Positions 35,797 to 60,053 of a stretch of DNA of 64,000 nt are shown here, piece by piece. Where the stretch lies: positions 3,189-67,188 of the forward strand of contig JABIHN010000040.1 in the NCBI GenBank assembly GCA_018649625.1. The letters run 5' to 3'. How positions within the stretch are numbered: position 1 is the first letter of the stretch; each line of letters begins with the position of its first letter. Position numbers and translations under genes: made by a program. The DNA comes from Fidelibacterota bacterium (GTDB taxonomy: Bacteria > Fidelibacterota > Marinisomatia > Marinisomatales > UBA1611). The notes beneath the pieces were generated by a model. It was not told the origin of the DNA. It ran no database searches and saw only the letters and a program-made list of their open reading frames with translations.

Positions 35797-38700
35797 TTAT
35801 TCTTTAAGCATATTTATCTTTATATTGGATAAGTGCCCACCATCCAATCGCCTTAATCTGGCGCATCCGCCCCAGCCACCACCTTCATTCACTATTTTCA
35901 TTAATAAAGTATTTTTACCTTTTTGCAAAGTGACTTCTTTTACATCTTCCCCTGCGGTAACACCACGACTTGCATCATTTACGTGAACTACTTGACCGTT
36001 CAGCCAAGTTTTAATGCCATCATTGCTACCCATTTCCAAGCGAACCGTTTGTTCTTCATCGGACCAAAACTCTGTTTCCATATAAATAGCTGCCACCATA
36101 CTTTTAATTATTTTAGCAAAATCCACATACCAATACCGGTTTGGATCAGAAAGTTTAGGCGCGATTGTCCAGTTTCTATAAATAGCTAACTCTGGGCCAA
36201 ATTTCGTATTAAAAATACTTTTATCCGTAGCCATAAAGGGTTCAGACATGCGCCATTCTGTTATATAATCATCAAAGATCTCAATCTGATTTAAAACTAA
36301 CTGTGCATTCTCTTGAATCGATTCATTAGATATATCCGAAATGATGTTTATCAAGACAGATTTGCATTCGATAGGATGTTCGGTGTGAATTCCATTGGCA
36401 ATACTAATGCAGGATGAAGCAGCTTCTGCTTTTATATCTGCCAAAAGTAAGTAGGTTTCGGCCATTTGAAATGCTGTTATGGACATGACCTTCGATAGTC
36501 CAGATAAAACGGCTTTTTTCTCTTGAATATTAGTTGCCAAAGCCATGGCCCGTTTATATAATTCATTCGTTGTTTCTGTAGTGCGGTCACTTTCTAATTC
36601 GATGAGCCTGATTATTCCACGAAGTGCTAATGTTTTATGACCTTGGATTTTGGCATTTTCCGTCACATCAAATAATATGGGAAGTGGTGAATCATTTTTC
36701 CATTCGGATAAAGCTTTAATAGCAGATTTTCGAATGTTTTTTTCGTCATGATTTAAAAACCCAAGTAGAGATTCGTAAGCTGGTTCGTATCCCAGTTGGC
36801 CTAAGATATGAATGGCCGTTTGTTTTGGCATGAATGAAATAGCATCCAATTGATTCATAATTTCTAAACCTACAGAATCATTTAGGTTATTTCGTTCTGC
36901 CATGATGACAATTGCTTTTTCCAATTCATCTCGATCTCTATCTGATTTTGAATGTTTCAGCAGATTTACCATTTCAAAAATGTGTGGTTTACTTGCAATA
37001 AAACGAAGTGCTTTTACAGATTCAACCCGAAGTGAAGCGTTGGTATTATTTGCCAAATTCAACATTAAATCAGCACCTTTAATAATTCGCCTTTTTTGAA
37101 CGGCTCGTATGAGTTCTATTTTCACTTTTTCTTTGGCATTTGGAATATTGGATAGAATTATATCATTAATATTGTTGCCATTAAGTCTGTATAAACTGTT
37201 TCGTGCGATAGTATGTTCTTTGCCTTTCCCATGAGCGGAGACATCTGCAAGCAAGGTAACGGACGATTCTAAATTAATATCTCCCAATGCATCTAATGCT
37301 GCCAAACGAACAGCATCATTTTCACTTTCTGTGGCTAACTTGATGGTTAAGAAGACTGTGGGGTAACCCCAAAATGGTGAAAGAGCAGAAATAAGTTGTA
37401 TCTGTCCATTCACAGGCAAGTGATTTACACTTTTGGCAACGATTGAAATATCATCGGAGTTTGTAAGTAGTGAAATGGACGAAATAGCTGTGGAAATTAT
37501 TTTTGGTTCCGATTCCTTTAATGCCTTCAGAATGATGAATCCTGCCTTTCCCGGTGATGATTGGATCAATCCACGAATGGCAGCCGATCGGATAACAGGA
37601 TTTTCATTGGGGCGGCTTAATTGAGTGAATATTTTTTTTGCCTTTTTAATTTCTCCGGATTTGAGCAATTGATTTCCACATTCAAGGTACGCATTCACTA
37701 GAGTTTCCCGTTGAGTTTCGGCGACTCTTTTGAGTGATTTCTTTAATATTTTTGCTGCTTTCCAAGTGCCGATATTTCCCAACGCAGTAGCGGAAGCAGT
37801 AGCGATATCAATATTATTTGACCAGATATATTTTTTCAATATTGAAACAGCATTCCTATCTTGTCTTGCGCCAAGCGTATTAATAATGCTTATTTTTACA
37901 TTATCATTCACAACTGATAATTTTCCCCGTAGAAGAGCATTTGTAGATTCACCGGGGATTCTTTTTAAAATATATAAAGCCGTTTCATAAAGATTAGGGT
38001 CATTGAATAATTTTGCGATTGATTCGGCTGAAGAAGGATCAGCAATAAGACTGTAATATTTCCCAATCACCTGCTTGGCAGGAGTGGATGCATCCGACAG
38101 TAAAAATGAAACCAATGATTTTTCAATTCGGGACAGATAATTCGGATTTCGATGTGCAACCCGAATCATATCTTCAATAACCGTTAGGTTTTTACGGTTA
38201 TCTCCGTAATTATAATTCTTTATGCTTTCCAGTACAGCGTCAAAATTTGGTTCAAAATATTTTTCCCAACTCCGAACCGTCACAGCATCAGGGAAATCCA
38301 ATGGAATTTCTTGAGTTACATTCCCCGTAGCAGCCCATTCTGTACCACGCTGAATTACAGTAATAAATCCACCACATTCTAAAGAACGATAGGGTACAGT
38401 GCCGGTTACATGACCCAATGGCGTATGAAAGACACGCCCCTTTCCATAATCTATAGTCATCATTACGGGCTCGTGTCGGCCACTGCCGTTTCGATCTGCG
38501 GGATTTGAATAAGCAGTTGCCAAAATCTGCATATTTTTTCCGAGCCCACGCAGATGGCTGTACAACTCATCTCTGCCGCGCATCCATTTTTCTGGTAATC
38601 CCTTTGTAATGGGATGATCCATATCACGGTTAATGACCTGAAATTCATGTTGGGGACCGTGTCCACCGGCTTCCCCGGGAGTCATGTCCCGAATGAATTT

Positions 38701-39153
38701 TCCATCCTGCCAATATATATAGGGGCCATCCTTTTCATCCCGATCACCCCAAGCACCAAGGCCAATGATGTCTAAATATTCGGGCCAGTCTCCAAAAGAA
38801 TTATTGGCTGCATGGACTAATACAACACCGCCACCGGATTTCACATAATCCACAAAGGCATCTTGAGTTTCTTTGGGCCATGATGCACCATTATAATCTA
38901 AAAATACCACATCATATTTATTGAAGTTTGGATGAAATATTTCTATTTCTTGACTCAAAGGTGGACGAATAGCCATGTCCACAGAAAATAATTCAGTTTG
39001 CTCCAAAATCTGTTTAAAGACAACGGAACTGACTTCCCATTTATGATTATTATGCCCGGTTACTATTAAGACTTTGTGTGGTGGCTTTACTGCCAAGAGA
39101 AGGGATATGGAAAAAATCCATATGGCGATTCTATTTCGGGTCAAATAGTCCAT
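35797..39153 (-). CDS. ThuA-like domain + extended HEAT-like repeat region + 152-aa C-terminal recurrent module
   Basis: ThuA pattern KVLIVTGHNNHKW...FNKYDVVFLDYNG..WP..TQ.AF..YV.SGGGVVLVHAANNSF..W.EY. HEAT/PBS-type repeats (AVRLAALDALGDI, ASLRVESVKALRFI, KNIRKSAIKALSEW). C-terminus WRMSEPF..VRLEMGSNDGIKTWLNG..GGGWGGCARLRRLDGG. No CxxCH motif. Confidence 0.75.
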   Translation of the reverse strand: MDYLTRNRIAIWIFSISLLLAVKPPHKVLIVTGHNNHKWEVSSVVFKQILEQTELFSVDMAIRPPLSQEIEIFHPNFNKYDVVFLDYNGASWPKETQDAFVDYVKSGGGVVLVHAANNSFGDWPEYLDIIGLGAWGDRDEKDGPYIYWQDGKFIRDMTPGEAGGHGPQHEFQVINRDMDHPITKGLPEKWMRGRDELYSHLRGLGKNMQILATAYSNPADRNGSGRHEPVMMTIDYGKGRVFHTPLGHVTGTVPYRSLECGGFITVIQRGTEWAATGNVTQEIPLDFPDAVTVRSWEKYFEPNFDAVLESIKNYNYGDNRKNLTVIEDMIRVAHRNPNYLSRIEKSLVSFLLSDASTPAKQVIGKYYSLIADPSSAESIAKLFNDPNLYETALYILKRIPGESTNALLRGKLSVVNDNVKISIINTLGARQDRNAVSILKKYIWSNNIDIATASATALGNIGTWKAAKILKKSLKRVAETQRETLVNAYLECGNQLLKSGEIKKAKKIFTQLSRPNENPVIRSAAIRGLIQSSPGKAGFIILKALKESEPKIISTAISSISLLTNSDDISIVAKSVNHLPVNGQIQLISALSPFWGYPTVFLTIKLATESENDAVRLAALDALGDINLESSVTLLADVSAHGKGKEHTIARNSLYRLNGNNINDIILSNIPNAKEKVKIELIRAVQKRRIIKGADLMLNLANNTNASLRVESVKALRFIASKPHIFEMVNLLKHSKSDRDRDELEKAIVIMAERNNLNDSVGLEIMNQLDAISFMPKQTAIHILGQLGYEPAYESLLGFLNHDEKNIRKSAIKALSEWKNDSPLPILFDVTENAKIQGHKTLALRGIIRLIELESDRTTETTNELYKRAMALATNIQEKKAVLSGLSKVMSITAFQMAETYLLLADIKAEAASSCISIANGIHTEHPIECKSVLINIISDISNESIQENAQLVLNQIEIFDDYITEWRMSEPFMATDKSIFNTKFGPELAIYRNWTIAPKLSDPNRYWYVDFAKIIKSMVAAIYMETEFWSDEEQTVRLEMGSNDGIKTWLNGQVVHVNDASRGVTAGEDVKEVTLQKGKNTLLMKIVNEGGGWGGCARLRRLDGGHLSNIKINMLKE

Positions 39154-40430
39154 GGTGCTCTCATGGGTCTGGATAAAAGTCGATTTGCTTCTGGATCGTT
39201 AGGGAAAATTTCTTTGTCCGGATCCCAAGTGAGTTTTCGTCCAGTCGTGATAGCGATTTCACCCAAATTGGGAACAGAAGTGGACCGATGCCCAACTTCA
39301 CATGGCGTAATCGTTTCTTTTCGAGATCGGATGCAATCTGCAAAATTTTGGTAATGATCTTTGCTGTCGTACAGATGAATCTCGTTGGGAGCAATCCATT
39401 CTTGTAATATGCTGGACGGTTCTGCTGAAATCTGTCCCCGACTTACATTCACCCAACCTTTATCTCCATACCAAGTAGCACCGCCTTTATTGCCACGATT
39501 AGCAACATTCAAATGAATTCCATTTTTATATTTATAATTCAGATTAAAATCGATTGGCACATTAAACATGCCTTCTTTTGGAATCGTGCCCGTGCCTTCC
39601 ACTTCCACAGGACCAGAACGATCTTCTCCCAAGCCCCACTGGGCGATATCAATATGATGGACACCCCAATCGGTCAGTCCGCCAAAACTATAATCCTGAA
39701 TGTAGCGCCAGCTATAATGGGCAATTTTCCGATAAGGAACTTTCGGTGCCGGTCCCAGCCAGAAATTCCAGTCCAATCCGTCTGGTACTGGAACGATAGG
39801 GTGGGGTTCCATGGCTGCTTTTCCTGCAGGAATGCCTACGGTTACATGATGTACTTTTCCTATGCGTCCATTTTGGACTAATTCACAAGCCAATCGAAAC
39901 CGCTCATCAGAACGCTGTTGGGTCCCCGTTTGAAAAATAACATTATATTGCTCCACCGCATTGCATAAAGCTCGACCTTCTTGAATGGTTCGTGTCAGTG
40001 GCTTTTGACTATAAATATCCAAGCCAGATTTTGCAGCAGCAATAGCCGCAGTGGCGTGCCAATGATCGGGCGTCGCAATATGAACAGCATCTAAATCTGT
40101 TCGTTGGAGTAATTCCCTGAAATCAGAATACAAAGCACAATCTTCATTATCGTTCGTAGCATCTACTATACTTTTTCCTCGCATTAAGTTTGCACGATCT
40201 ACATCACAAACGGCCACGAAGTGAACACCATCTTTATGGATAAGATTGCGAAGATCCACACGACCTTGGCCACCCAAGCCAATGGATGCCATAATGATTC
40301 GGTCGCTTGGGGCAGTATGGCCATCTCGTCCTAAAGCTCGTGCAGAAATAAACATGGGTATTGCTGCAGCGCCTATTAAAGCGCTGGATGATTTAATAAA
40401 TTGCCGTCTGTTTATTTTTTTATCGTTCAT
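39141..40430 (-). CDS. Tat-exported Gfo/Idh/MocA-family oxidoreductase
   Basis: Twin-arginine signal NRRQFIKSSSALIGAAA; Rossmann MASIGLGGQG; YSQKPL motif. Overlaps the upstream gene by 11 nt and the downstream gene by 13 nt. Confidence 0.85.
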   Translation of the reverse strand: MNDKKINRRQFIKSSSALIGAAAIPMFISARALGRDGHTAPSDRIIMASIGLGGQGRVDLRNLIHKDGVHFVAVCDVDRANLMRGKSIVDATNDNEDCALYSDFRELLQRTDLDAVHIATPDHWHATAAIAAAKSGLDIYSQKPLTRTIQEGRALCNAVEQYNVIFQTGTQQRSDERFRLACELVQNGRIGKVHHVTVGIPAGKAAMEPHPIVPVPDGLDWNFWLGPAPKVPYRKIAHYSWRYIQDYSFGGLTDWGVHHIDIAQWGLGEDRSGPVEVEGTGTIPKEGMFNVPIDFNLNYKYKNGIHLNVANRGNKGGATWYGDKGWVNVSRGQISAEPSSILQEWIAPNEIHLYDSKDHYQNFADCIRSRKETITPCEVGHRSTSVPNLGEIAITTGRKLTWDPDKEIFPNDPEANRLLSRPMRAPWTI

Positions 40431-42693
40431 ATTTTACATTAGCAAGATGTCCACCGTCTATTCTTCGTAATCGAGCACAAGCGCCCCATCCGCCACCGCC
40501 TTCATTGATAATTTTAAGTAGAAGTGTATTCCAGCCTTTGTTTAATTGTGCTTCAACTACATCATCGCCTGGCGTAACACCACGAGCTACGGAATGTAAA
40601 TGAACCATATCATCATTCATCCATGCTTTGATTCCGTCATTACTTCCCATTTCCAGCCGAACCGTCTGATCAATTTCCGACCAAACTTTTGTTTTAAGAT
40701 ATACCACAGCAACCAAACTTGTTTTCAGTCCAGTCAAATCTACATGCCAATAATTATTTGGATCTGAAAAAGCAGGTACTTTTCGCCATAAAGAATAAGC
40801 ATCCCTATCCTTTTCAGGTGCAAATTCTGTGGCATACATACTTTGTCCCGATATCATAAAAGGTTCAGACATGACCCATTCTGTAATATAATCTTCCAAC
40901 TTTTGAATATTATTAAGCACAGCCTGTGCAAGTTGGCTATGTTGATCGTTAGATGAATCGGTTATAATATTTTCAATAACGGCGCCACATTCATTGGGGT
41001 AAAGGGATTGAATATTATTGGCAATTGCGAGACAAGCTGCTTCTGCATGTTCGATTAATGCATTATCTTTAAGAAAATCCTCTGCTGTATAAAATGCTTC
41101 GATAGTTTTAATACCGTGTAATCCACGCAATGCTGCTTTAGTCTCATTTTCATTTTGGCAAGAAGAAAATACTTTTCCATACAATTTGATAGCTTCATCA
41201 ACAGGACGATAAAGTTCCACGCCAATCAGTTTTACGGCACCTTCGGCAGCCAATATTCGTTGATCGGGATCATTAGAAGATGCCAAGATATCCATTATGG
41301 AAGAAAGGGGCTGGTCGTCGTTCCAGCCTGATAAAGCAATGATGGCCGCTATTTGAACATCTGAAGATGGGTCGTTTAATAATGTTGTTAGTGTTTTTAA
41401 CGTTTCACTATCTTTGTGTTTCCCAAGAATACGAATAAAAGATAAACGCGCTTTCTGTTCTTTGGTTTTCTTGAGAGCATCTACCATTAATTTGATATCT
41501 ATTTTTGAAGAACTTGTCATCATTAACCCATTGATGGTTCCTTCTAATTCAGTCCGTTCTGAATCGGTTTTTGCGCTAACCAATAACTGAATGCAATCTT
41601 CCAAATAAGGTTTTGATGCTATGACTTTCAAAGTTTTTACCGCTTCTAAACGAACATTACCATTTTTATTTGTCGCTAATTTTAGAATGGTTTTGATGCT
41701 GTTATTAATCCGCCTTTCACCAACAGCACGAATAAATTCAACCTTTATATCGGAATTTCGATTGGATAGGCCGGATTGAATGGCGCTATCTATTTTTGAC
41801 CCATTCAAATTATATAAACTATTTTGTGCAACTATTTTTTCTTCACCATTACTTTTAGCAGCATGGGATGCCAAAATTTTCACAACTTTTGGGTCTGGTA
41901 TTTGTCCTGCTAAATCCAAGGCAACAAGTCGAATATTTTGATTCTTATTATTGATTGAAGAAAGAATAACTTTTTTGACGTTTGGTTCATTAGCGTAAGG
42001 ATGCAGGGATGATAATAATTGAATTTGTTCAGGATCGGAAAGAGAATGAAAATCGATTATGGAAGAAGCTACATTGACAAATTCCGTCAATTGAATATCC
42101 CGCCAGCGTACACGAACATTATCACCTGAATGGATTTGAAGTGCAATGGAACCTACACCTTTACCAATTTTCGGATCGTTCATATCAACCATTTTAATAC
42201 CATTGAGCCACGTTTGAACGCGGTCACCAATTACTTTTATGCGAAGTTTATTCCAGCTGCCTTGAGCTAAAACCGATTCTTTGCTCTCTGGGATTTTTTC
42301 TAGCCAACCGCGGCCGTATGATTCATAAATACCGCCTGTATCTTTTCCTTTAGGTGCCACTTCAACTTGCCAACCGGTTACTTTTGTACCTTCAAATGTG
42401 GACCGAAAAAATACACCGCTGTTTCCATCTGATTCCTGTTTAAAAAGAAGCGATAAATCAAAGTCTTTGTATTGTTTGATAGTGGAAAGATAACCGTATT
42501 CATGATCTGGACCACTTTCACACACTAATTCACCCATTTCAACATACCAGTTTTCTGTGCCGTGGACTTCCCATCCTTCTAGGTTTAATCCATTAAATAA
42601 ATTATTATTATGGATTGATTCATCCGGCAACTGGGAAGAGTAAACGAATCCAGGTATTAATATTGCAATTAATGATAGTTTCTTTAGCATCAC
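40420..42693 (-). CDS. DUF1080 (3-keto-disaccharide-hydrolase-like) domain + HEAT-like repeat region + 152-aa C-terminal recurrent module
   Basis: Signal peptide. DUF1080 pattern LFNGLNLEGWEVHG..W.VE.GELV...FDLSLLFK..SDGNSGVFFR...WQVEV...GGIYE...WNKLRIKV.GDRVQTWLNG...IALQIH. The HEAT region is paralogous to the gene at 35797. C-terminus WVMSEPF..VRLEMGSNDGIKAWMN..GGGGWGACARLRRIDGG. No CxxCH motif. Confidence 0.75.
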   Translation of the reverse strand: MMLKKLSLIAILIPGFVYSSQLPDESIHNNNLFNGLNLEGWEVHGTENWYVEMGELVCESGPDHEYGYLSTIKQYKDFDLSLLFKQESDGNSGVFFRSTFEGTKVTGWQVEVAPKGKDTGGIYESYGRGWLEKIPESKESVLAQGSWNKLRIKVIGDRVQTWLNGIKMVDMNDPKIGKGVGSIALQIHSGDNVRVRWRDIQLTEFVNVASSIIDFHSLSDPEQIQLLSSLHPYANEPNVKKVILSSINNKNQNIRLVALDLAGQIPDPKVVKILASHAAKSNGEEKIVAQNSLYNLNGSKIDSAIQSGLSNRNSDIKVEFIRAVGERRINNSIKTILKLATNKNGNVRLEAVKTLKVIASKPYLEDCIQLLVSAKTDSERTELEGTINGLMMTSSSKIDIKLMVDALKKTKEQKARLSFIRILGKHKDSETLKTLTTLLNDPSSDVQIAAIIALSGWNDDQPLSSIMDILASSNDPDQRILAAEGAVKLIGVELYRPVDEAIKLYGKVFSSCQNENETKAALRGLHGIKTIEAFYTAEDFLKDNALIEHAEAACLAIANNIQSLYPNECGAVIENIITDSSNDQHSQLAQAVLNNIQKLEDYITEWVMSEPFMISGQSMYATEFAPEKDRDAYSLWRKVPAFSDPNNYWHVDLTGLKTSLVAVVYLKTKVWSEIDQTVRLEMGSNDGIKAWMNDDMVHLHSVARGVTPGDDVVEAQLNKGWNTLLLKIINEGGGGWGACARLRRIDGGHLANVKYER

Positions 42694-44301: not shown

Positions 44302-44318
44302 TTTCCATTTCTCATTTT

Positions 44319-44396
44319 AGCCACAAAGAGCACGGAGATCCACAAAGAAAAAATATGTCATCTTATTCTTCGTGTTCCTTGGTGTACTTGGTGGCT
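44319..44396. repeat. Inverted pair of the stop-proximal CACNAAG-type element
   Basis: AGCCACAAAGAGCACGGAGATCCACAAAGAA (44319-44349, plus strand) faces 44366-44396, whose reverse complement is AGCCACCAAGTACACCAAGGAACACGAAGAA. The spacer is 16 nt. On the minus strand the element starts 5 nt after the stop of the 44402-45553 gene (6 nt counting the stop's last base). Confidence 0.65.
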
Positions 44397-44401
44397 CATT
44401 T

Positions 44402-45553: not shown

Positions 45554-45619
45554 AATATTATATCATCGCCATATAAAGTGTGCTTCGCTAAAACTGACAA
45601 AAGATATTGTTTTTATTTT

Positions 45620-45650
45620 ATCTTCGTGTTTCTTGGCGCTCTTTGTGGCT
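45620..45650 (-). repeat. Single copy of the stop-proximal CACNAAG-type element
   Basis: The minus strand reads AGCCACAAAGAGCGCCAAGAAACACGAAGAT, starting 7 nt after the stop of the 45658-47055 gene. Confidence 0.55.
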
Positions 45651-45657
45651 GATTTTT

Positions 45658-51437: not shown

Positions 51438-52616
51438 ATGAAATTAAGTAGAAAATTGAAAATGGGGTTAATTGGTGGTGGCCCAGATGCATTTATTGGA
51501 GATATTCATCGAAAAGCCGCTATTCTTGATGGGGGAGTTGAATTAGTCTCCGGTACCTTTAGCCGGGATATTAAAAAATCAGGATTAGCTGGAGAATGTT
51601 ATTATATAGACCAGGATCGTGTGTTTAATGATTATAAAGACATGATTCAATATGAAATATCTTTGTCTAAAAAAGACCGGATTGATTTTGTTGCGATTAC
51701 TACACCCAATAATTCTCACTATCAAATTGCTATGGATTTTTTAGATGCCGGATTTAATGTTATGTGTGAAAAGCCCATGACATTTAATGCAAAAGAAGCA
51801 ATCTCTTTGCGAGCAATGGTTAATGAAACAGGATTGGTATTTGGATTGATGCATAATTATTCTGGCTATCCCATGGTGAAACTTGCCCGTGATTTGGTGA
51901 GAAAAAATGAGTTGGGGAATATACGGAAAATTGTAGTTCAGTATCCGCAAGGCTGGCTTGCAACTCCTTTGGAAGAAACAGGTCACGTCCAGGCTGGATG
52001 GAGAACAGACCCATCTAAAAGTGGTGGAGCGGGAAGCATAGGAGACATAGGAACTCATGCGGAAAATTTATCCAATTATATTACAGGATTGGAAATAACT
52101 CATGTTTGTGCAGATTTATCTATAATGGTGGAAGGCCGGCAATTGGATGATGATGGGAATTGCTTATTGATATTTGACAATGGTGCAAAAGGTCTTATTC
52201 ATATAAGTCAAATTGCTTGTGGTGAAGAAAATAATTTGGCCATCTGGATTTATGGCGAAAAGAAAAGTTTAGAATGGCATCAGGAAAATCCAAATGAGCT
52301 CATTATTTTAGATGGTGATGGCCCAAACCAACTATGGCGCAGGGGAAATGAATATGTGGCCAAAGTGAGCCCAGCTGCAGCACGAGCTACACGGCTACCA
52401 TCGGGGCATCCAGAAGGGTTTTTGGAAGGATTTGCGAATATCTATGTGAATTTCACCGATACGATTCGTGCTCGATATTTAAATGAAAAACCATCAAAAG
52501 AAATGCTCGATTTTCCGAATGTGGATGATGGTCTTCGGGGAATGCTTTTTATTGATACTGTACTAAAAAGTACAAAGAGCGATCGGAAATGGACCAAAAT
52601 TGTAACGCATAATTAA
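51438..52616 (+). CDS. Gfo/Idh/MocA-family oxidoreductase (cytoplasmic)
   Basis: Rossmann motif MGLIGGGPDAFIG; MCEKPM motif; no signal peptide. Confidence 0.85.
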   Translation: MKLSRKLKMGLIGGGPDAFIGDIHRKAAILDGGVELVSGTFSRDIKKSGLAGECYYIDQDRVFNDYKDMIQYEISLSKKDRIDFVAITTPNNSHYQIAMDFLDAGFNVMCEKPMTFNAKEAISLRAMVNETGLVFGLMHNYSGYPMVKLARDLVRKNELGNIRKIVVQYPQGWLATPLEETGHVQAGWRTDPSKSGGAGSIGDIGTHAENLSNYITGLEITHVCADLSIMVEGRQLDDDGNCLLIFDNGAKGLIHISQIACGEENNLAIWIYGEKKSLEWHQENPNELIILDGDGPNQLWRRGNEYVAKVSPAAARATRLPSGHPEGFLEGFANIYVNFTDTIRARYLNEKPSKEMLDFPNVDDGLRGMLFIDTVLKSTKSDRKWTKIVTHN

Positions 52617-52628
52617 AAGGATACATTC

Positions 52629-53618
52629 ATGTCAAGACCAATAACACTTTTTACCGGGCAATGGGCGGATTTACCTATCGATGTTCTTGCTGAAAAAGCT
52701 GCATCATGGGGATATGAAGGGCTTGAGCTTGCTTGTTGGGGGGATCATCTAGATGTAAATAGAGCAGCTGTTGATTTGGACTATTGTGAAGTACATCTTG
52801 CGAAACTGGAAAAACATAATTTAAAAGTACATGCCATTAGCAATCATTTAGCTGGACAGCTTGTTTGCGATTTAAATGATGCCCGTTCCAATTCATTTGC
52901 ACCGGATGAATGTGCCGGCGATCCGGAGAAGAAAAGAGCTTGGGGCGTAGAGCAAATGAAATTATCAGCCCAAGCTGCAAAAAACTTAGGAATTGATGTT
53001 GTAAACGGGTTTACGGGTTCTTCTATTTGGCATTATTTTTATAGTTTTCCATCGGTTACTCAAAAAACATTGGATGAAGGTTATGAATATTTTGCGAAAA
53101 TGTGGAATCCCATTTTAGATGTTTTTGACGAGTGTGGAGTTAAGTTTGCTTTAGAAGTACATCCAACAGAAATTGCATTTGATATTGTAACAGCTGAGCG
53201 TGCAATTCAAGCTGTAAATGGACGAAAGGCATTTGGGTTTAATTTTGACCCAAGTCATCTTCATTGGCAAATGGTGGATCCGGTTAGATTTATTTACGAA
53301 TTCAAAGATAGGATTTATCATTGTCATATGAAAGATGCTGCATTTCAATTAGATGGGCGAACGGGTATTCTTGGATCTCATTTAGACTTTGGTGATTCCC
53401 AGCGTGGTTGGGATTTTAGATCCCTGGGACGTGGTGATATTGATTTTGAAGAAATTATCCGCGCGTTCAACCATATTGAATACAATGGTCCATTATCGGT
53501 AGAATGGGAAGATATGGGCATGGAACGGGAACAAGGCGCAGAAGAAGCATGTAATTTCGTGCGTCAATTGGATTTTAAACGGTCAGGCAGAGCATTTGAT
53601 TCTGCCTTTGAAGAATAG
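52629..53618 (+). CDS. Xylose-isomerase-like TIM-barrel protein (sugar phosphate isomerase/epimerase family)
   Basis: Pattern GYEGLELACWGDH..; LEVHPTE; NFDPSHL.WQ; HCHMKD; SVEWED. AAAGGA SD upstream. Confidence 0.85.
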   Translation: MSRPITLFTGQWADLPIDVLAEKAASWGYEGLELACWGDHLDVNRAAVDLDYCEVHLAKLEKHNLKVHAISNHLAGQLVCDLNDARSNSFAPDECAGDPEKKRAWGVEQMKLSAQAAKNLGIDVVNGFTGSSIWHYFYSFPSVTQKTLDEGYEYFAKMWNPILDVFDECGVKFALEVHPTEIAFDIVTAERAIQAVNGRKAFGFNFDPSHLHWQMVDPVRFIYEFKDRIYHCHMKDAAFQLDGRTGILGSHLDFGDSQRGWDFRSLGRGDIDFEEIIRAFNHIEYNGPLSVEWEDMGMEREQGAEEACNFVRQLDFKRSGRAFDSAFEE

Positions 53619-53627
53619 GATTATTAA

Positions 53628-55181
53628 ATGAACTCAAATCAAAAAATAAATTCAAAGTGGCTTTTTAAAGCCAGTTTTATTGCGCTGATTGCAACATCAT
53701 TTGCATTTGTAACTCGTTTTGCTGTGTTGGCAGATTGGGGGCGGCAATTCAATTTGAGTAGCACACAGATGGGTGAAATTGGCGGTGCAGGTGTGTGGCC
53801 ATTTGCTATTAGCATTATTTTATTTAGTCTTGTGATTGATAAAATCGGTTATGGCACGGCCATGGTGTTTGCCTTCGTCTGTCATATAACTTATGGATTG
53901 ATGGCAGTTTTTTGGGCGCCCAACGCAAATCCTGAGCAAGCATATACCATATTATTTTGGGCCAGTGTGATTTTGGCACTTGGGAACGGAACGGTAGAAG
54001 CAGTAATTAACCCTGTGGTTGCTACTATGTTCGATCGTGATAAAACCAAATGGTTGAATATTTTACATGCGGGATGGCCTGCGGGTCTCGTTGGTGCAGG
54101 TCTTATGACTATGGCCATGGGTGGTGCAGATTGGCGTTATAAAGTGGGACTTATTTTTATTCCTGCTGTTATTTATGGTGTTATGATGTTTAAACAAAAA
54201 TGGCCAGTTCAAGAGCGTGTGGCCGCTGGCGTTTCCTACATGGATATGTTGAGAGAATTTGGATTATTGGCGTCATTATTGGTAATTCCGATTATAATTC
54301 GTCAGATTGCTGTTGTGTTTGGTTTAGCTCTTTCAACAGAAATTCTTTTGGATATTGTTTTATTTTTAGCTTTTGGCTATACCATTTGGCCTAAAAGTGA
54401 ATCAATTAAAGGATCCAAATTATCTATTGTATTAGGTAGTCCCATGCTTTTCATTTTAATGCTCATAATGATGCCATTAGCAACAACAGAAATTGGAACG
54501 GATGGTTGGATTACAGCTTTAATGGAAAAAGCTATGGGTGATATTGGATTGCCTGCTGTTACGGTATTGGTTTATACATCAGCTATCATGATGGTTCTTC
54601 GATTTTATGCCGGACCTATTATCCATAGATTTAAACCTTTAGGGTTATTAACTATTAGCGCAGCAATTGCTGCCATTGGTCTTCTGCTTTTATCTCAAAG
54701 TACGGGGATAATGATTTTAGTTGTCGCAACACTTTATGCTTTGGGTAAATCCTTTCTTTGGCCAACTATGTTAGGTGTGGTGTCTGAACAATCACCAAAA
54801 GGGGGTGCATTAACATTAAATGCTATAGGCGGAATGGGAATGTTAGCTGTAGGTGTACTTGGTTTCCCATTTATTGGGATGTTGCAGGATAACGCATCTT
54901 CCGAATTATTACAGAAAAAAAATCAAGCTATTTATGAACAAGTTGTAGTAGAAAAAGATGGTGTATTGGGTGAATACAGTGCAATTGACTTGGATAAGGC
55001 GAATAAATTATCTGATGAAGAACAAGCAACTATTTCTAATGTTACGGAAGACGCTCGTCATGGAGCTTTGGCCTATATGGCGATTTTCCCATTCATTATG
55101 TTGTTGAGTTATGTGGGTCTCAACTTCTATTTTAAAAGTCGTGGTGGGTACGAACAAAAAATATTGGCATCATCAGATTAA
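53628..55181 (+). CDS. MFS-type transporter (substrate unknown)
   Basis: 517 aa with about 12 hydrophobic helices. Follows the GFO/TIM pair and precedes the AGE epimerase. Confidence 0.7.
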   Translation: MNSNQKINSKWLFKASFIALIATSFAFVTRFAVLADWGRQFNLSSTQMGEIGGAGVWPFAISIILFSLVIDKIGYGTAMVFAFVCHITYGLMAVFWAPNANPEQAYTILFWASVILALGNGTVEAVINPVVATMFDRDKTKWLNILHAGWPAGLVGAGLMTMAMGGADWRYKVGLIFIPAVIYGVMMFKQKWPVQERVAAGVSYMDMLREFGLLASLLVIPIIIRQIAVVFGLALSTEILLDIVLFLAFGYTIWPKSESIKGSKLSIVLGSPMLFILMLIMMPLATTEIGTDGWITALMEKAMGDIGLPAVTVLVYTSAIMMVLRFYAGPIIHRFKPLGLLTISAAIAAIGLLLLSQSTGIMILVVATLYALGKSFLWPTMLGVVSEQSPKGGALTLNAIGGMGMLAVGVLGFPFIGMLQDNASSELLQKKNQAIYEQVVVEKDGVLGEYSAIDLDKANKLSDEEQATISNVTEDARHGALAYMAIFPFIMLLSYVGLNFYFKSRGGYEQKILASSD

Positions 55182-55199
55182 TACAATTTAGATCATACT

Positions 55200-56480
55200 T
55201 TGAAATCCTATTTAGAAAAAACTGAAAATTATTTACAAAATCATTTGATTCCCTTTTGGGCGGATCGAGTCGTGGATAAACAATTTGGTGGATTTCAAAC
55301 AAACTTTGATCGGGATGGAAAACCAACTTCTGTTACTGAAAAATCCTTTTTAGCTCAAGGACGAAGCTTATTTACCATTTCACATGCCATCCGATGTGGA
55401 TATGATTGGCCAAATGGGAAGCAAGTATTGGAGCAAGGTGTTGATTTTTTATTTAAGCATTACATAGATAAAGAGAATGATGGTTATTATTGGATTGTAG
55501 ATGAAGGTGGGTCAGTTTTAGATGATAATAAAATTATTTATGGTCATGCATTTTTGATTTATGGATTATCAGAATATTCATTATTAACAGGCGATGAATC
55601 TGCAAAAAATGAAGCCATTCGATTATTTGATTTTTTACAAAATCGAATAAAAGACAATGAATATGGCGGTTATTTTGAACATTTTAATCGAACATTTGAG
55701 CCGATAAAAGCACGGAATGATATTGGTGTCTTTAAATCATTAGATGTCCATATGCATCTCATGGAAGCATTCACAACATTGGTAGAATTGACAGGTGATG
55801 ATTCTCATAAAAAAGCATTAAATGAAATAAACCAATTGATTTTTGATAAAATGATTCATCCAGACACTGGGACAGGCATATCTATGTTTACACAAGATTG
55901 GACTCCTATCGCTAATGTTGAATTGGATACAGTTTGGGGTGCAGATCGATTTGATGAAGACGGGAAATCCACATCCATCACATCCTATGGACATAATATT
56001 GAATTTGCGTGGTTATATTTATTGTCACAGGATGCCTTAAACATACCCCGAAACCAAAGTTTTATTGAAATGACTAAAATATATGAGCATACATATTATA
56101 ATGGTATTGATTGGGCAAATGGTGGATTATATGTGGAAGGCGAACGAGAAGGTGATGTGACTGAAACCAATAAAGAATTTTGGCAACAGGCGGAAGGTAT
56201 GGTTGGGTTTTTAGATGCTTATTTACTAACCAAAGATGAGAAATATTTAGATGCCTTCAAAAATTTGCATGATTTTGTTTTTACGAAAATGATTAACTGG
56301 GATGTAGGTGAATGGTTTGCTCTTTTGGATAAAAAAGGGGATGTTACATGGGATTATATGGGAACCAGTTGGAAAACATTATACCACACCGTTCGTGGAA
56401 TGTGCGAAACGGCCAATCGTCTTAAACGAATAATTGAAGAATCTGAAACAACGCCATTAAAATCAATGGTAACACCATAG
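55200..56480 (+). CDS. N-acylglucosamine 2-epimerase (AGE) superfamily protein (AGE / cellobiose 2-epimerase / aldose-ketose isomerase type)
   Basis: TTG start at 55200. Motifs FWADR..D...GGFQTNFDRDG, YGHAFLIYGLSEY, HNIEFAWLYL, FWQQAEGMVGFLDAY. Confidence 0.8.
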   Translation: MKSYLEKTENYLQNHLIPFWADRVVDKQFGGFQTNFDRDGKPTSVTEKSFLAQGRSLFTISHAIRCGYDWPNGKQVLEQGVDFLFKHYIDKENDGYYWIVDEGGSVLDDNKIIYGHAFLIYGLSEYSLLTGDESAKNEAIRLFDFLQNRIKDNEYGGYFEHFNRTFEPIKARNDIGVFKSLDVHMHLMEAFTTLVELTGDDSHKKALNEINQLIFDKMIHPDTGTGISMFTQDWTPIANVELDTVWGADRFDEDGKSTSITSYGHNIEFAWLYLLSQDALNIPRNQSFIEMTKIYEHTYYNGIDWANGGLYVEGEREGDVTETNKEFWQQAEGMVGFLDAYLLTKDEKYLDAFKNLHDFVFTKMINWDVGEWFALLDKKGDVTWDYMGTSWKTLYHTVRGMCETANRLKRIIEESETTPLKSMVTP

Positions 56481-56488
56481 GAGCCAGT

Positions 56489-57886
56489 ATGAAAGAGTCT
56501 GTTAAAAAAGAAACAAATAAAACGATTTCAAGGAGAGATTTTATTGCAAAATCTTCGGTAGCTGCTGCTGCTTTCATGATTGTACCTCGTCATGTATTGG
56601 GCGGTGTTGGTTATACTTCACCAAGTGATAAATTAAATATTGCGGCTATTGGGGTAGGTGGAAAAGGAAGATCTGATATTGCAGGTGTTGCCACAGAAAA
56701 TATTGTAGCGCTCTGTGATGTAGATGATGTGAATATGTTTAAAACTATTGATAAAGCAGGTGAATGGGCAGCCGAAAATGGACTTTCGGAAAACCCTTTA
56801 GCAAAGGTGCCAAGATACAAAGATTTTCGAGTTATGTTGGATAAGCAAAAAGATATAGATGCAGTTACAGTGAGTACCCCAGATCACTTCCATGCTGTTG
56901 CAGCCATAACGGCCATTAAACAAGGGAAACATGCTTTTGTGCAAAAACCACTTACACATTCTGTGGATGAAGCGCGAAAATTAAGTGTCGCCGCTAAAAA
57001 GGCTGGCGTAGTGACTCAAATGGGAAACCAAGGTCATGCGGGAGAAGGTATTAGGTTAATCAGTGAATGGCTTGAAGACGGTGCCATCGGTGATGTTCGT
57101 GAAGTGCATTGTTGGACAAACCGCCCCGTATGGGAAACAGGTATGCCTCGTCCTTCGACAATTCCATCTGTACCACCTACGTTGGATTGGAATCAGTGGA
57201 TCGGGCCAGCGCCTTACAGACCTTATCACCCAGATTATGCGCCATGGAGTTGGCGTGCATGGTGTGATTTCGGAACCGGTGCATTGGGTGATATGGGTGC
57301 GCATATTTTTGACATTCCTTACCATACATTAAAAATGGATCATCCTACTTCTGTTTTTGCCAGTTCATCCAAATTCAATGGAGAATCTTGGCCGGTGGCA
57401 TCCACTATTTATTATGAATTTCCACAACGGGGAAAACTTCCACCTGTCAAATTGACTTGGTTCGATGGGGGCATTATGCCACCAAGGCCAGAAGGAATCG
57501 AACCGGGAAGACGGATGGGCGATGGTGATGGCGGAATTATGTTTTATGGTGATAAAGGAATGATTATGTGTGGCTGTTATGGAAGACAACCAAGACTGAT
57601 TCCAGAAACAAGTATGAAGGCGTATAAACGACCTGCTAAAACATTGAAACGATCACCTGGAATTCATCAAGAGTGGGTGCAAGCTATCAAAGATGGTACC
57701 GATGGTACTTCCAACTTTGAATATGCAGCTATGTTGACCAGCACGATGTTATTGGGAAATGTAGCTATTCGAATGGCGCCACGAAGTACCAAATTAGAAT
57801 GGGATGGCAAAGAAGGTAAATTCACAAATATGGATGAAGCGAATGAATATCTTGGTCGTAAATATAGAGATGGCTGGAGTCTGTAA
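56489..57886 (+). CDS. Tat-exported Gfo/Idh/MocA-family oxidoreductase (paralog of 60054-61394)
   Basis: Tat signal ISRRDFIAKSSVAAAAFMIVP; motifs IAAIGVGGKG, VSTPDHFH, VQKPLTH, MGNQGHAGEG; AGGAG SD upstream. Confidence 0.85.
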   Translation: MKESVKKETNKTISRRDFIAKSSVAAAAFMIVPRHVLGGVGYTSPSDKLNIAAIGVGGKGRSDIAGVATENIVALCDVDDVNMFKTIDKAGEWAAENGLSENPLAKVPRYKDFRVMLDKQKDIDAVTVSTPDHFHAVAAITAIKQGKHAFVQKPLTHSVDEARKLSVAAKKAGVVTQMGNQGHAGEGIRLISEWLEDGAIGDVREVHCWTNRPVWETGMPRPSTIPSVPPTLDWNQWIGPAPYRPYHPDYAPWSWRAWCDFGTGALGDMGAHIFDIPYHTLKMDHPTSVFASSSKFNGESWPVASTIYYEFPQRGKLPPVKLTWFDGGIMPPRPEGIEPGRRMGDGDGGIMFYGDKGMIMCGCYGRQPRLIPETSMKAYKRPAKTLKRSPGIHQEWVQAIKDGTDGTSNFEYAAMLTSTMLLGNVAIRMAPRSTKLEWDGKEGKFTNMDEANEYLGRKYRDGWSL

Positions 57887-57906
57887 ATTATTATTAGGAG
57901 ATAATT

Positions 57907-58515: not shown

Positions 58516-58518
58516 TTC

Positions 58519-60033: not shown

Positions 60034-60053
60034 CCTACGAAAAAGGGAAAACT

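What the first reader, a model, noticed from the sequence alone, without database searches (positions are those of the whole stretch)
35797..42693. Overlapping gene triplet: two paralogous HEAT-repeat giants with swapped catalytic heads (DUF1080 vs ThuA-like) bracketing a Tat-exported Gfo/Idh/MocA dehydrogenase
Seen in sequence: three minus-strand genes overlap by 11 nt (40420-40430) and 13 nt (39141-39153), which suggests translational coupling. Gene 1 (757 aa) has a signal peptide, DUF1080, HEAT-like repeats and a 152-aa C-terminal module. Gene 2 (429 aa) is a twin-arginine (NRRQFIK) Gfo/Idh/MocA dehydrogenase. Gene 3 (1118 aa) has a ThuA-like domain, a longer HEAT-like region and the same C-terminal module. 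The two large proteins are plainly paralogous across the distal HEAT region and the module (ARNSLYRLNGNNINDIILSNIP..IELIRAVQKRRI vs AQNSLYNLNGSKIDSAIQSGLS..VEFIRAVGERRI), yet their N-terminal heads are unrelated. Established knowledge: as far as I recall, ThuA- or DUF1080-plus-HEAT architectures in PVC-type genomes usually end in a CxxCH cytochrome c domain. I find no CxxCH in either protein, and the beta-sandwich-like module occupies that position. Inference: a periplasmic sugar dehydrogenase sits between two scaffold proteins presenting different sugar-processing heads. This would be a candidate multi-protein oxidative glycan-processing assembly that I do not recognise as described.
Basis: partly seen in the sequence, partly recalled or inferred. 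Interest (0 to 1): 0.8.

Follow-up and report, generated by a model that had tools for sequence, protein, structure and literature searches.

The report
Periplasmic sugar-oxidising enzyme set on HEAT scaffolds
Three overlapping genes of an uncultured marine bacterium (Marinimicrobia) encode an exported sugar dehydrogenase flanked by two related long helical-repeat proteins with different enzyme heads; this is probably an elaborated, so far undescribed form of the known pathway that cuts sugar chains by oxidation rather than hydrolysis.

Summary
There are three minus-strand genes with 11-nt and 13-nt overlaps: DUF1080–HEAT–module (757 aa), a Tat-signal Gfo/Idh/MocA dehydrogenase (429 aa), and ThuA–HEAT–module (1118 aa). 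The two large proteins are 42% identical over 536 aa, and there is no CxxCH.

The chemistry is known: it is the 3-keto-glycoside route (BT2157-2160/AL enzymes; ThuAB).

Three points appear undescribed:
- A g2-type Tat dehydrogenase sits directly upstream of a ThuA-bearing gene across at least 8 phyla.
- ThuA, the HEAT solenoid, a PA14-like β-sandwich and DUF1080 occur fused, split or permuted in many combinations.
- The DUF1080-headed protein is a Marinimicrobia-specific duplicate of the scaffold with a swapped head.

The C-terminal module is a divergent PA14-like domain. It is very common (about 14,000 clusters) and is present on four proteins in this window. The exact triplet is confined to a subset of Marinimicrobia. 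A physical assembly is inferred, not shown. I rate it a new variant of a known kind, of moderate interest.

The parts
40420..42693 (-). Gene 1, 757 aa: signal peptide, DUF1080 head, HEAT solenoid, PA14-like module
   Evidence: ORF; Pfam. It is 100% identical to P0274, 'DUF1080 domain-containing protein [Candidatus Marinimicrobia bacterium]', seen on 91 contigs.
42088..42603 (-). DUF1080 / 3-keto-disaccharide-hydrolase-family head of gene 1 (aa 31-202)
   Evidence: PF06439, E 1e-34. It is 60-69% identical to the second domain of about 420-aa tandem-DUF1080 proteins (A5); best solved structure is 4JQT. The NSG and LQxH motifs are kept, but the usual E-x-Q reads Q-x-E.
40903..42027 (-). Distal HEAT region of gene 1 (aa 223-597), paralogous to gene 3 aa 584-958
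   Evidence: BLASTP 42% identity, E 7e-134, together with the module; HEAT_2.
40423..40902 (-). C-terminal PA14-like beta-sandwich module of gene 1 (aa 598-757)
   Evidence: AF2 pLDDT 88.7. Foldseek top hits are PA14 domains and GH2/CBM35 sugar-binding sandwiches, E about 3e-4, TM about 0.5. hhalign against the window's PA14 domains gives probability 68%, E 4.6e-5.
39141..40430 (-). Gene 2, 429 aa: Tat-signal Gfo/Idh/MocA dehydrogenase, glycoside 3-dehydrogenase-like
   Evidence: Pfam. Best NCBIfam hit is BT_2158_fam glycoside 3-dehydrogenase, 173 bits, below the 750 cut-off. Best solved structures are 8TDF and 8TDH, E 2e-32; GHTAPSD, (E/Q)KPLT and D-x3-H are aligned.
40329..40430 (-). Twin-arginine signal of gene 2 (aa 1-34, NRRQFIK...ARALG)
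   Evidence: Read from the sequence; TAT_signal hit at 19.1 bits is sub-threshold. 35 of 41 GFOs sitting upstream of scaffold genes in other loci carry an RRx motif.
35797..39153 (-). Gene 3, 1118 aa: signal or anchor helix, ThuA head, about 20 HEAT repeats, PA14-like module
   Evidence: ORF; Pfam. AF2 pLDDT 86.5, pTM 0.50. 100% identical to P0009.
38332..39075 (-). ThuA domain of gene 3 (aa 27-274)
   Evidence: PF06283, E 2e-27. PDB 4E5V at E 1e-94; Foldseek TM 0.94, 49% identity. Many invariant residues across 31 homologues, including H37, H114, H165, H248, D195, E196 and R240.
36280..38244 (-). HEAT solenoid of gene 3 (aa 304-958); the distal part (aa 584-958) is shared with gene 1
   Evidence: About 40 helices in the AF2 model. 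Foldseek gives only generic HEAT scaffolds: CAND1, karyopherin-beta, SF3B1, PP2A-A.
35800..36276 (-). C-terminal PA14-like module of gene 3 (aa 960-1118)
   Evidence: hmmsearch with the module profile, E 1e-78; beta strands in the AF2 model.
40420..40430 (-). 11-nt overlap between the end of gene 1 and the start of gene 2
   Evidence: Not conserved: 630-nt gap in L001 and an AbiEii insertion in L086/L087.
39141..39153 (-). 13-nt overlap between the end of gene 2 and the start of gene 3
   Evidence: The same -13 overlap occurs in L005, L006, L088 and L092-L095.
19755..21806 (-). Third copy of the module in the window: FAD_oxidored (PF12831) protein with the module at its C-terminus (aa 533-683)
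   Evidence: hmmsearch E 4e-71; Pfam.
58519..60033 (+). Fourth copy of the module: 504-aa protein with the module in the middle and DUF1080 at the C-terminus
51438..61394 (+). Companion cluster: GFO, xylose-isomerase-like TIM barrel, MFS, GlcNAc-2-epimerase-like, Tat-GFO, DUF1080, module-DUF1080, Tat-GFO
   Evidence: In L005 the same cluster follows the ThuA-HEAT-module gene directly. In L086 and L088 it abuts gene 1 divergently.

Best explanation
The triplet is a periplasmic, elaborated version of the oxidative (3-keto) glycoside-cleavage route.

Gene 2 is exported folded through Tat, presumably with bound NAD(P). I infer that it oxidises C3-OH of a sugar residue of a glycoside. Gene 3 supplies the ThuA partner that accompanies this dehydrogenase clade almost everywhere, a ThuB/ThuA-like pair. 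Here ThuA is extended by about 20 HEAT repeats and a PA14-like beta-sandwich.

Gene 1 is a Marinimicrobia-specific duplicate of the distal HEAT + PA14-like unit in which the ThuA part was replaced by a DUF1080 domain. DUF1080 is the family that performs 1,2-elimination and hydration of 3-keto-glycosides.

I infer that the shared HEAT/PA14-like unit brings the dehydrogenase, the ThuA head, the DUF1080 head and the glycan together, so that the labile 3-keto intermediate is processed on the spot. The 3-keto sugar would then be reduced again by the same dehydrogenase, or imported and reduced by the cytoplasmic GFO and TIM-barrel enzymes of the companion cluster.

Shown: the domain identities, export signals, paralogy, gene-order conservation and fusion/fission patterns. 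Inferred: the substrate and regiochemistry, the role of ThuA, any physical complex, and the redox balance.
For: Domain assignments above curated cut-offs.

Gene 2's nearest characterised relatives are the glycoside 3-dehydrogenases BT2158/AL3. Their Tat export and bound cofactor are discussed in PMC8121099. DUF1080 enzymes are 3-keto-glucoside 1,2-lyases/hydratases (bioRxiv 10.1101/2024.03.25.586180). ThuAB forms 3-keto-disaccharides (PMC8121099).

Gene order: a GFO lies directly upstream of the HEAT-module gene in 41 of 60 evaluable cases, and in 38 of 41 it is the best match to gene 2, at 51-56% identity even in Planctomycetota. Reciprocally, 51 of 65 cases have a ThuA or HEAT gene directly downstream of the gene-2-like GFO.

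Fusion and fission variants: ThuA-HEAT-module-DUF1080 in one chain (L065), HEAT-module-DUF1080 (L046), HEAT-module-ThuA (L047), downstream ThuA-DUF1080 fusions (L021), and ThuA | HEAT | HEAT-module | module-DUF1080 as separate genes (L099, L103, L105).

In the NJ tree, the Marinimicrobial DUF1080-type units are sister to the Marinimicrobial ThuA-type units.

The module is PA14-like. The HEAT part resembles protein-binding scaffolds only.

Surroundings: GH3, GH20, GH28, GH38, BNR, SASA, seven GFOs, five DUF1080 domains and two TIM barrels in 64 kb.
Against: Gene 2 scores far below the NCBIfam equivalog cut-off for glycoside 3-dehydrogenase (173 vs 750 bits), and only its N-terminal 270 aa align to 8TDF.

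Gene 1's DUF1080 head belongs to an uncharacterised subfamily in which the usual E-x-Q motif reads Q-x-E.

The biochemical role of ThuA is unknown.

HEAT and module are dispensable in many relatives: ThuA of about 403 aa alone, and forms of about 970 aa without the module.

The module also sits on non-HEAT proteins, which fits a plain sugar-binding role better than a docking role.

The gene 1-gene 2 junction is not conserved.
Confidence: 0.55

Rival explanations
1. The pathway is the same, but there is no assembly. The three proteins act independently in the periplasm. The HEAT solenoid is a spacer or substrate-binding arm and the PA14-like module is an ordinary carbohydrate-binding module. 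The overlaps simply reflect a compact genome.
For: The module occurs on four different proteins in the window, two of them without HEAT, and in about 14,000 clusters with many unrelated partners. Its fold matches sugar-binding PA14, GH2-N and CBM35 domains. Overlaps and tiny gaps are general along the array. The gene 1-gene 2 junction is broken in relatives.
Against: The GFO-ThuA adjacency is tight across phyla, and single chains split into 3-4 adjacent genes. Both are hard to explain for unrelated free enzymes. The HEAT fold is typically a protein-binding scaffold.
Confidence: 0.3
2. The dehydrogenase is linked to respiration. The GFO/ThuA pair carries out net oxidation of sugars in the periplasm and passes electrons, possibly via ThuA, to c-type cytochromes and the quinone pool. 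In this genome the acceptor is encoded outside the window.
For: In 12 of 80 related loci a multihaem cytochrome gene lies in the same cluster, usually right after a second Tat-GFO. These are hexahaem c7/c3/MtrC-like proteins, or NapC/NirT tetrahaem proteins fused to an FGE-sulfatase domain. PMC8121099 refers to ThuAB as cytochrome-c-dependent. The Withers preprint suggests that cytochromes may re-oxidise the enzyme. The ThuA domain has several invariant His, Asp and Glu residues.
Against: There is no CxxCH in any of the 40 window genes. The cytochrome neighbours follow a different GFO type (PF02894 C-terminal domain), not the gene-2-type GFO. No electron-transfer cofactor is known for ThuA.
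Confidence: 0.2
3. The dehydrogenase acts on something other than a glycoside C3-OH, for example inositols, free sugars at C1, or anhydro-sugars. In that case the DUF1080 head would be a lectin-like binding domain rather than a lyase.
For: Gene 2 also hits inositol 2-dehydrogenase, levoglucosan dehydrogenase and other GFO models. DUF1080 overlaps CBM66 and has also been reported as an endo-xanthanase (PMC5673643, PMC9007349). Gene 1's head has the altered Q-x-E motif.
Against: The best matches are consistently the glycoside 3-dehydrogenases. Co-occurrence with TIM-barrel lyase homologues and further DUF1080 genes reproduces the full known pathway.
Confidence: 0.1

Closest known systems
BT2156-BT2160 / AL1-AL3 oxidative glycoside-cleavage cluster of Bacteroides and Alistipes (Liu et al. 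2021, PMC8121099; Nasseri et al. 2024, bioRxiv 10.1101/2024.03.25.586180)
   Same: It has a Tat-exported Gfo/Idh/MocA dehydrogenase (best PDB and NCBIfam matches of gene 2), a periplasmic DUF1080 enzyme, and xylose-isomerase-like TIM-barrel partners, which are present elsewhere in the window. It is periplasmic, probably redox-neutral, and works through a 3-keto intermediate.
   Different: Those proteins are single-domain. They have no ThuA, no HEAT solenoid and no PA14-like module. Gene 2 has a different C-terminal domain (PF19051) and fails the equivalog cut-off. Gene 1's DUF1080 belongs to another subfamily. No SusR regulator is present here.
ThuAB of Sinorhizobium meliloti and Agrobacterium tumefaciens (Ampomah et al. 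2013, as cited in PMC8121099 and PMC6683767)
   Same: An adjacent pair of a ThuA-family protein and a Gfo/Idh/MocA-family dehydrogenase that together form 3-keto-disaccharides.
   Different: Here the gene order is GFO then ThuA. Both carry export signals. ThuA is closest to the Bacteroidota 4E5V type and carries a roughly 840-aa HEAT + PA14-like extension. Orthology to the rhizobial proteins was not demonstrated: the rhizobial thuA was not retrieved at E<=1e-5 in the plasmid collection.
PVC-type 'haem-binding CxxCH' proteins with ThuA or DUF1080 and HEAT repeats ending in cytochrome c
   Same: An N-terminal sugar-related head followed by PBS-lyase-type HEAT repeats in exported proteins of Planctomycetota and Verrucomicrobiota.
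   Different: No CxxCH occurs in this family. Where cytochromes occur they are separate multihaem genes.
PA14 domains of GH3 beta-glucosidases and adhesins (PF07691; PDB 3ABZ, 6M8M, 6XAC)
   Same: Beta-sandwich fold, an S-D/N-D-G ... L-N-G core motif, and an association with glycan-active proteins.
   Different: The window's two proteins give no Pfam PA14 hit. Relatives give only sub-threshold hits (best E 2.4e-6). TM is only about 0.5. Sugar binding is untested.
LacABC / FAD-type glucoside 3-dehydrogenase with a cytochrome subunit (PMC9007349)
   Same: Periplasmic C3 oxidation of glycosides followed by a DUF1080 enzyme.
   Different: A different dehydrogenase family (FAD/GMC plus cytochrome c); no such subunits are present here.

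Membership tests
DUF1080 / 3-keto-disaccharide hydrolase family (Pfam PF06439) | Match to the profile above the gathering score | tested here: met
   Gene 1 aa 31-202 scores 120.4 bits against a cut-off of 26.8.
DUF1080 enzymes with BT2157/AL2-type activity (3-keto-glucoside 1,2-lyase / hydratase) | Conserved channel residues reported for BT2: Glu103, Asn134, Glu164-x-Gln166, Tyr190, Lys245, Gln273-x-His275 | tested here: inconclusive
   By motif only. NSG and LQxH are invariant in alignment A5, but the usual [YF]-E-V-Q reads W-Q-V-E in gene 1 and its subfamily. No residue-level alignment to 8TDA was obtained; phmmer to 8TDA gives E 0.08.
Gfo/Idh/MocA oxidoreductases | Rossmann domain PF01408 plus a family C-terminal domain; (E/Q)KP lysine and D-x3-H | tested here: met
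   PF01408 at 55 bits and PF19051 at 122.7 bits; the motifs align to 8TDF.
Glycoside 3-dehydrogenase, BT_2158 family (NCBIfam NF058561, equivalog) | Full-length score at or above 750 bits | tested here: not met
   173 bits, with only profile positions 1-268 of 487 matched. It is the closest characterised family, but gene 2 is not a member by the curated criterion.
Tat-exported proteins | Twin-arginine motif S/T-R-R-x-F-L-K followed by a hydrophobic stretch and an A-x-A site | tested here: met
   NRRQFIKSSSALIGAAAIPMFISARALG was read from the sequence. The Pfam TAT_signal hit is sub-threshold at 19.1 vs 22.7 bits. Export itself is not testable here.
ThuA family (Pfam PF06283) | Profile match above the gathering score and the ThuA fold | tested here: met
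   97.4 bits against a cut-off of 33.4. 4E5V at E 1e-94, TM 0.94.
ThuAB-type 3-ketoglycoside-forming dehydrogenase | ThuA gene adjacent to a Gfo/Idh/MocA (ThuB) gene; joint requirement for 3-keto-disaccharide formation | tested here: inconclusive
   Adjacency is met and widely conserved. Orthology to rhizobial ThuAB is not shown. The joint requirement is not testable with these tools.
PA14 domain (Pfam PF07691) | Profile match above 24 bits; PA14 beta-barrel fold | tested here: inconclusive
   No Pfam hit for genes 1 or 3. 9 of 46 relatives have sub-threshold hits on the module. hhalign probability 68%, E 4.6e-5. Foldseek's best hits are PA14 domains, at E about 3e-4 and TM about 0.5.
PVC-type ThuA/DUF1080-HEAT-cytochrome c proteins | C-terminal CxxCH haem-binding domain | tested here: not met
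   No CxxCH in any frame of the region, in 90 module-bearing ORFs or in 31 aligned homologues.
HEAT-repeat proteins | Tandem helix-turn-helix repeats forming a solenoid | tested here: met
   HEAT_2 scores 82-94 bits. There are about 40 helices over aa 304-958 in the AF2 model. Foldseek matches karyopherins, CAND1 and PP2A-A.

The most novel reading that the evidence does not exclude
The HEAT + PA14-like unit is the platform of a periplasmic 'oxidative glycosidase' complex. It holds a Tat-exported NAD-dehydrogenase, a ThuA subunit and a DUF1080 lyase/hydratase on the glycan chain, so that sugars are removed by oxidation-elimination-hydration without releasing the reactive 3-keto intermediate. 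In Planctomycetota and Calditrichota the same platform would be wired to multihaem cytochromes, so that glycan oxidation feeds the respiratory chain. This would be a widespread, non-hydrolytic counterpart of cellulosome- or utilisome-type assemblies in marine and sediment heterotrophs.
Probability: 0.25. Interest if true: 0.75.

Novelty: new variant of a known kind. Interest (0 to 1): 0.55.

Why it matters
The oxidative 3-keto route was only recently recognised as a broad alternative to glycoside hydrolases, and only with small single-domain enzymes from gut Bacteroidota.

The data here show that a specific Tat-dehydrogenase clade is locked to ThuA across many phyla that dominate marine and sediment polysaccharide turnover: Marinimicrobia, Planctomycetota, Verrucomicrobiota, Calditrichota, KSB1 and Cytophagia. 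In these lineages ThuA, DUF1080, a long HEAT solenoid and a PA14-like domain have been fused and split repeatedly.

This gives ThuA, whose biochemical role I could not find described, a defined partner and context. It points to accessory components that are missing from current pathway models, and it offers concrete constructs for testing substrate channelling. It also flags an unmodelled, very common PA14-like domain family.

Tried and rejected
(1) The word-index search with the module alone returned only 8 fragments, which wrongly suggested rarity. The exhaustive HMMER search found 13,975 clusters.

(2) I suspected that the 97-aa ORF overlapping the gene-1 orthologue by 11 nt in L081/L082 was a remnant of the dehydrogenase. 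BLASTP shows no similarity, so I rejected the idea.

(3) Literature searches for a mechanistic role of ThuA gave only the ThuAB genetics and an unsupported 'oxidase' statement.

(4) tblastn of the ThuA head against plasmids found stand-alone ThuA genes in Parabacteroides and Runella. These have no dehydrogenase neighbour, which is uninformative. The rhizobial thuA was not retrieved.

(5) The promoter and terminator scans were at chance level, and the sigma-70 consensus may not apply to this phylum.

(6) I considered a bilin-lyase-like function for the HEAT region, because of weak NblB, CpcE and CpeY hits. I rejected it as generic repeat similarity: the scores of 21-58 bits are far below the cut-offs of 300-600.

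(7) A haem site was searched for in all frames and is absent.

(8) A search for Marinimicrobia literature on this locus type found nothing specific.

Full report
OBSERVATION.

The three minus-strand ORFs exist exactly as described.
- Gene 1 is 40420-42693, 757 aa.
- Gene 2 is 39141-40430, 429 aa.
- Gene 3 is 35797-39153, 1118 aa.

The overlaps are ATGAACGATAA (11 nt) and ATGGACTATTTGA (13 nt).

Pfam confirms the domain assignments.
- Gene 1 has DUF1080 (now named 3keto-disac_hyd) at aa 31-202 plus HEAT_2.
- Gene 2 has the GFO_IDH_MocA Rossmann domain plus GFO_IDH_MocA_C2, behind a visible NRRQFIK twin-arginine signal.
- Gene 3 has ThuA at aa 27-274 plus HEAT_2.

Gene 1 aa 223-754 and gene 3 aa 584-1112 are 42% identical (E 7e-134), while the heads are unrelated. 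No CxxCH or variant occurs in the three proteins or in any frame of the region. None occurs in any of the 40 larger ORFs of the window either.

Gene 1 is 100% identical to a protein that NCBI labels as Candidatus Marinimicrobia, seen on 91 public contigs. The nearest genome loci are Ca. Neomarinimicrobiota MAGs. The window is therefore from Marinimicrobia (SAR406).

THE MODULE.

The shared C-terminal stretch of about 160 aa has no Pfam hit. It folds confidently as a beta-sandwich (pLDDT 88.7).

Its best structural matches are the PA14 domains of a GH3 beta-glucosidase and of adhesins. Next come GH2 N-terminal sugar-binding domains and CBM35, at E about 3e-4 and TM about 0.5. A profile-profile comparison with the window's three bona fide PA14 domains aligns the GS[DN]DG.K.WLNG core (probability 68%, E 4.6e-5). 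Nine of 46 relatives give sub-threshold PA14 hits on the module. I call it PA14-like.

It is not special to these two proteins. The window has four copies. The other two are on a FAD_oxidored protein (19755-21806) and on a 504-aa protein that ends in DUF1080 (58519-60033). An exhaustive HMMER search finds 13,975 clusters at E<=1e-3, with many different partner domains.

THE CATALYTIC PARTS AND WHAT IS KNOWN.

Gene 2's closest characterised relatives are the glycoside 3-dehydrogenases.
- NCBIfam BT_2158_fam scores 173 bits, well below the equivalog cut-off of 750.
- PDB 8TDF and 8TDH score E 2e-32. The post-signal GHTAPSD, the (E/Q)KPLT lysine and the D-x3-H motif all align.

The literature supplies the functional background.
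- BT2158 is a Tat-exported dehydrogenase proposed to carry bound NAD(P). BT2157 (DUF1080) acts on 3-keto-trehalose (PMC8121099).
[quoted passage not shown] They showed that TIM-barrel 'isomerases' are the beta-lyases (bioRxiv 10.1101/2024.03.25.586180).
- ThuAB, a ThuA protein plus a GFO-family ThuB, forms 3-keto-disaccharides in rhizobia.

So the three heads of the triplet are the three protein types already tied to the 3-keto-glycoside route.

The window as a whole is saturated with that route.
- It has seven GFO genes, four of them with Tat signals.
- It has five DUF1080 domains.
- It has two xylose-isomerase-like TIM barrels, one of them fused to DUF1080.
- These are embedded among GH3, GH20, GH28, GH38, a BNR sialidase-like gene, a SASA esterase, a DHDPS/NanA-like gene and a GlcNAc-2-epimerase-like gene.

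COMPARATIVE GENOMICS.

A genome scan with the module profile gave 399 loci. The best 80 span Marinimicrobia, Calditrichota, KSB1, Cytophagia/Bacteroidota, many Planctomycetota, Verrucomicrobiota, Kiritimatiellae, Lentisphaerae and Sumerlaeota.

I mapped the window's domains onto all ORFs of these loci.
- There are 90 module-bearing ORFs, and none has CxxCH.
- In 41 of 60 evaluable cases a GFO gene ends within -196 to +172 nt of the start of the HEAT-module gene.
- In 38 of those 41 it is the locus's best match to gene 2, and 35 of 41 show an RRx motif.
- These dehydrogenases are 51-56% identical to gene 2 even in Planctomycetota. The scaffolds are only 31-41% identical.

The reciprocal scan used 80 metagenome loci chosen by similarity to gene 2 (39-93% identity). 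Of 65 evaluable loci, 51 have a ThuA-bearing or HEAT gene immediately downstream. That includes nearly all loci whose GFO is at least 45% identical to gene 2.

The downstream partner takes every conceivable form.
- ThuA of about 403 aa alone.
- ThuA | HEAT | HEAT(-module) | module-DUF1080 as three or four separate genes (L099, L103, L105).
- ThuA-HEAT | HEAT-module (L036 and others).
- ThuA-HEAT of about 970 aa without the module.
- ThuA-HEAT-module, as in the window.
- ThuA-HEAT-module-DUF1080 in one chain of about 1350 aa (L065).
- HEAT-module-DUF1080 (L046).
- HEAT-module-ThuA (L047).
- A downstream ThuA-(TPM)-DUF1080 fusion (L021).

The deeply conserved core is therefore the gene-2-type Tat dehydrogenase plus ThuA. 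HEAT, the PA14-like module and DUF1080 are recurrent accretions that are repeatedly fused and split. That is classic evidence that these parts act together.

THE TRIPLET ITSELF.

The DUF1080-HEAT-module architecture with DUF1080 at the N-terminus is found in only about 11 clusters at 58-100% identity; the two that carry a taxon label are Marinimicrobia.

An NJ tree of the HEAT-module unit, without support values, places these units as sister to the Marinimicrobial ThuA-type units. This points to a lineage-specific duplication followed by a head swap. The head is 60-69% identical to the second domain of widespread tandem-DUF1080 proteins of about 420 aa.

The contiguous triplet is present in L088 (gene-1 orthologue 86% identical) and in L092-L095, with the same 13-nt gene 2/gene 3 overlap. 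Elsewhere it is not intact.
- L086/L087 carry a 207-aa gene plus an AbiEii insertion between gene 1 and gene 2.
- L001 has a 630-nt gap at that junction.
- Gene-1 orthologues in L081-L085 have no dehydrogenase or ThuA gene beside them.

STRUCTURE OF GENE 3.

AlphaFold2 with 31 homologues gives pLDDT 86.5 and pTM 0.50, so the inter-domain geometry is uncertain. The model has an N-terminal helix, a ThuA alpha/beta domain, about 40 helices (about 20 HEAT repeats) and the beta-sandwich.

Foldseek matches the head to 4E5V (TM 0.94). It matches the solenoid only to generic protein-binding HEAT scaffolds: CAND1, karyopherin-beta, SF3B1 and the PP2A A subunit. No characterised family of unrelated function claims the repeat region.

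The ThuA domain is by far the most conserved part, with several invariant His, Asp, Glu and Arg residues. This suggests a real active or cofactor site whose nature is unknown.

ELECTRON FATE.

In this family there are none.

However, 12 of the 80 module loci contain separate multihaem cytochrome genes, usually right behind a second Tat-GFO of another subtype. These are hexahaem c7/c3/MtrC-like proteins, or NapC/NirT proteins fused to an FGE-sulfatase-like domain. The window has none. A redox-neutral cycle, oxidation of the glycoside and reduction of the released 3-keto sugar as in the AL/BT system, is therefore the simpler reading here. A respiratory link remains possible in other lineages.

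MECHANISM, COMMITTED.

At about 0.55 confidence I read the triplet as a periplasmic oxidative glycoside-cleaving set.
1. Gene 2 oxidises C3.
2. The gene 1 head eliminates and hydrates.
3. ThuA of gene 3 is the obligatory but mechanistically unknown partner of the dehydrogenase.
4. The paralogous HEAT + PA14-like units tether the heads to the glycan and, I infer, to the dehydrogenase.

The main rival (0.3) is the same chemistry without any assembly.

NOVELTY.

The chemistry and the individual families are known. Three things appear undescribed in the literature I could search: the conserved Tat-GFO/ThuA pairing outside rhizobia, the HEAT + PA14-like extensions with their fusion and fission series, and the Marinimicrobial head-swapped paralogue. 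I rate this a new variant of a known kind, with interest 0.55.

Noticed in passing
window 19755-21806 (-): A FAD-dependent oxidoreductase (PF12831, E 4e-112) carries the same PA14-like module at its C-terminus (aa 533-683, E 4e-71). This is a third enzyme class on the same module, in the same gene array.
   Followed up: partly
window 1840-3273 (+): A 477-aa protein with a signal-peptide-like N-terminus fuses a xylose-isomerase-like TIM barrel (AP_endonuc_2) to a DUF1080 domain. That puts the two lyase/hydratase types of the 3-keto pathway in one chain, next to a GFO gene (334-1587).
   Followed up: no
window 51438-61394 (+); L005 6409-15251; L086 and L088 upstream regions: A second 3-keto-type cluster: GFO, TIM barrel, MFS, GlcNAc-2-epimerase-like, Tat-GFO, DUF1080, module-DUF1080, Tat-GFO. 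In relatives it lies directly beside the triplet or directly after the ThuA-HEAT-module gene. In the window it is separated from the triplet by seven genes (42706-51422: GATase, HAD, Fe-ADH, aldehyde dehydrogenase, MFS, a 209-aa protein and a metallophosphatase).
   Followed up: partly
L008 14038-15552, L012, L033, L045; L019 8009-10435, L029, L046, L047, L062, L065, L071, L073: Multihaem c-type cytochrome genes sit inside related clusters, usually just after a second Tat-GFO. They are either a NapC/NirT tetrahaem domain fused to an FGE-sulfatase-like domain (about 504 aa), or hexahaem c7/c3/MtrC-like proteins (613-822 aa).
   Followed up: partly
window 33598-35772 (-): A 724-aa secreted protein with no Pfam or NCBIfam family sits immediately downstream of gene 3. 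Its homologues directly follow gene-1 orthologues in L003 and L083-L084. It is a candidate uncharacterised glycan-active enzyme.
   Followed up: no
L086 11342-12768; L087 9704-11130: A 207-aa gene plus an AbiEii-family toxin gene are inserted exactly between the gene-1 orthologue and the dehydrogenase in one Marinimicrobia lineage.
   Followed up: no
L081/L082 versus window 13.9-40.4 kb and 42.7-48.3 kb: A relative with a 69%-identical gene 1 lacks the roughly 26-kb glycan-degradation segment, including genes 2 and 3, and also the segment from the GATase gene to the MFS gene. The locus is a strain-variable mosaic.
   Followed up: partly
window 6648-12546, 16864-18897, 24380-26695, 29929-31035, 55200-56480: The gene set looks like sialylated N-glycan or glycoprotein utilisation: GH38 alpha-mannosidase, GH20 hexosaminidase, BNR sialidase-like, SASA sialate O-acetylesterase, DHDPS/NanA-like and GlcNAc-2-epimerase-like genes, plus a PfkB-HAD fusion.
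   Followed up: no
window 61441-62757 (+): A BNR/Sortilin-type protein with a Por_Secre_tail (type IX secretion) C-terminal sorting domain.
   Followed up: no
window 42064-42633 (-) and relatives P0289, P0301, P0339, P0368: Gene 1's DUF1080 head and a large family of tandem-DUF1080 proteins of about 420 aa share a strictly conserved WQVEVAPKG.DTGGIYESYGRGW block. In it, the usual E-x-Q of DUF1080 reads Q-x-E. This is a distinct, uncharacterised subfamily.
   Followed up: partly
window 21834-24341 (-) and 13917-16961 (-): Two large secreted proteins have only accessory domains recognised. One has CHB_HEX_C, Fn3_assoc and PA14. The other has a beta-helix, CARDB and a DUF1349 fragment. Their catalytic parts are unassigned.
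   Followed up: no
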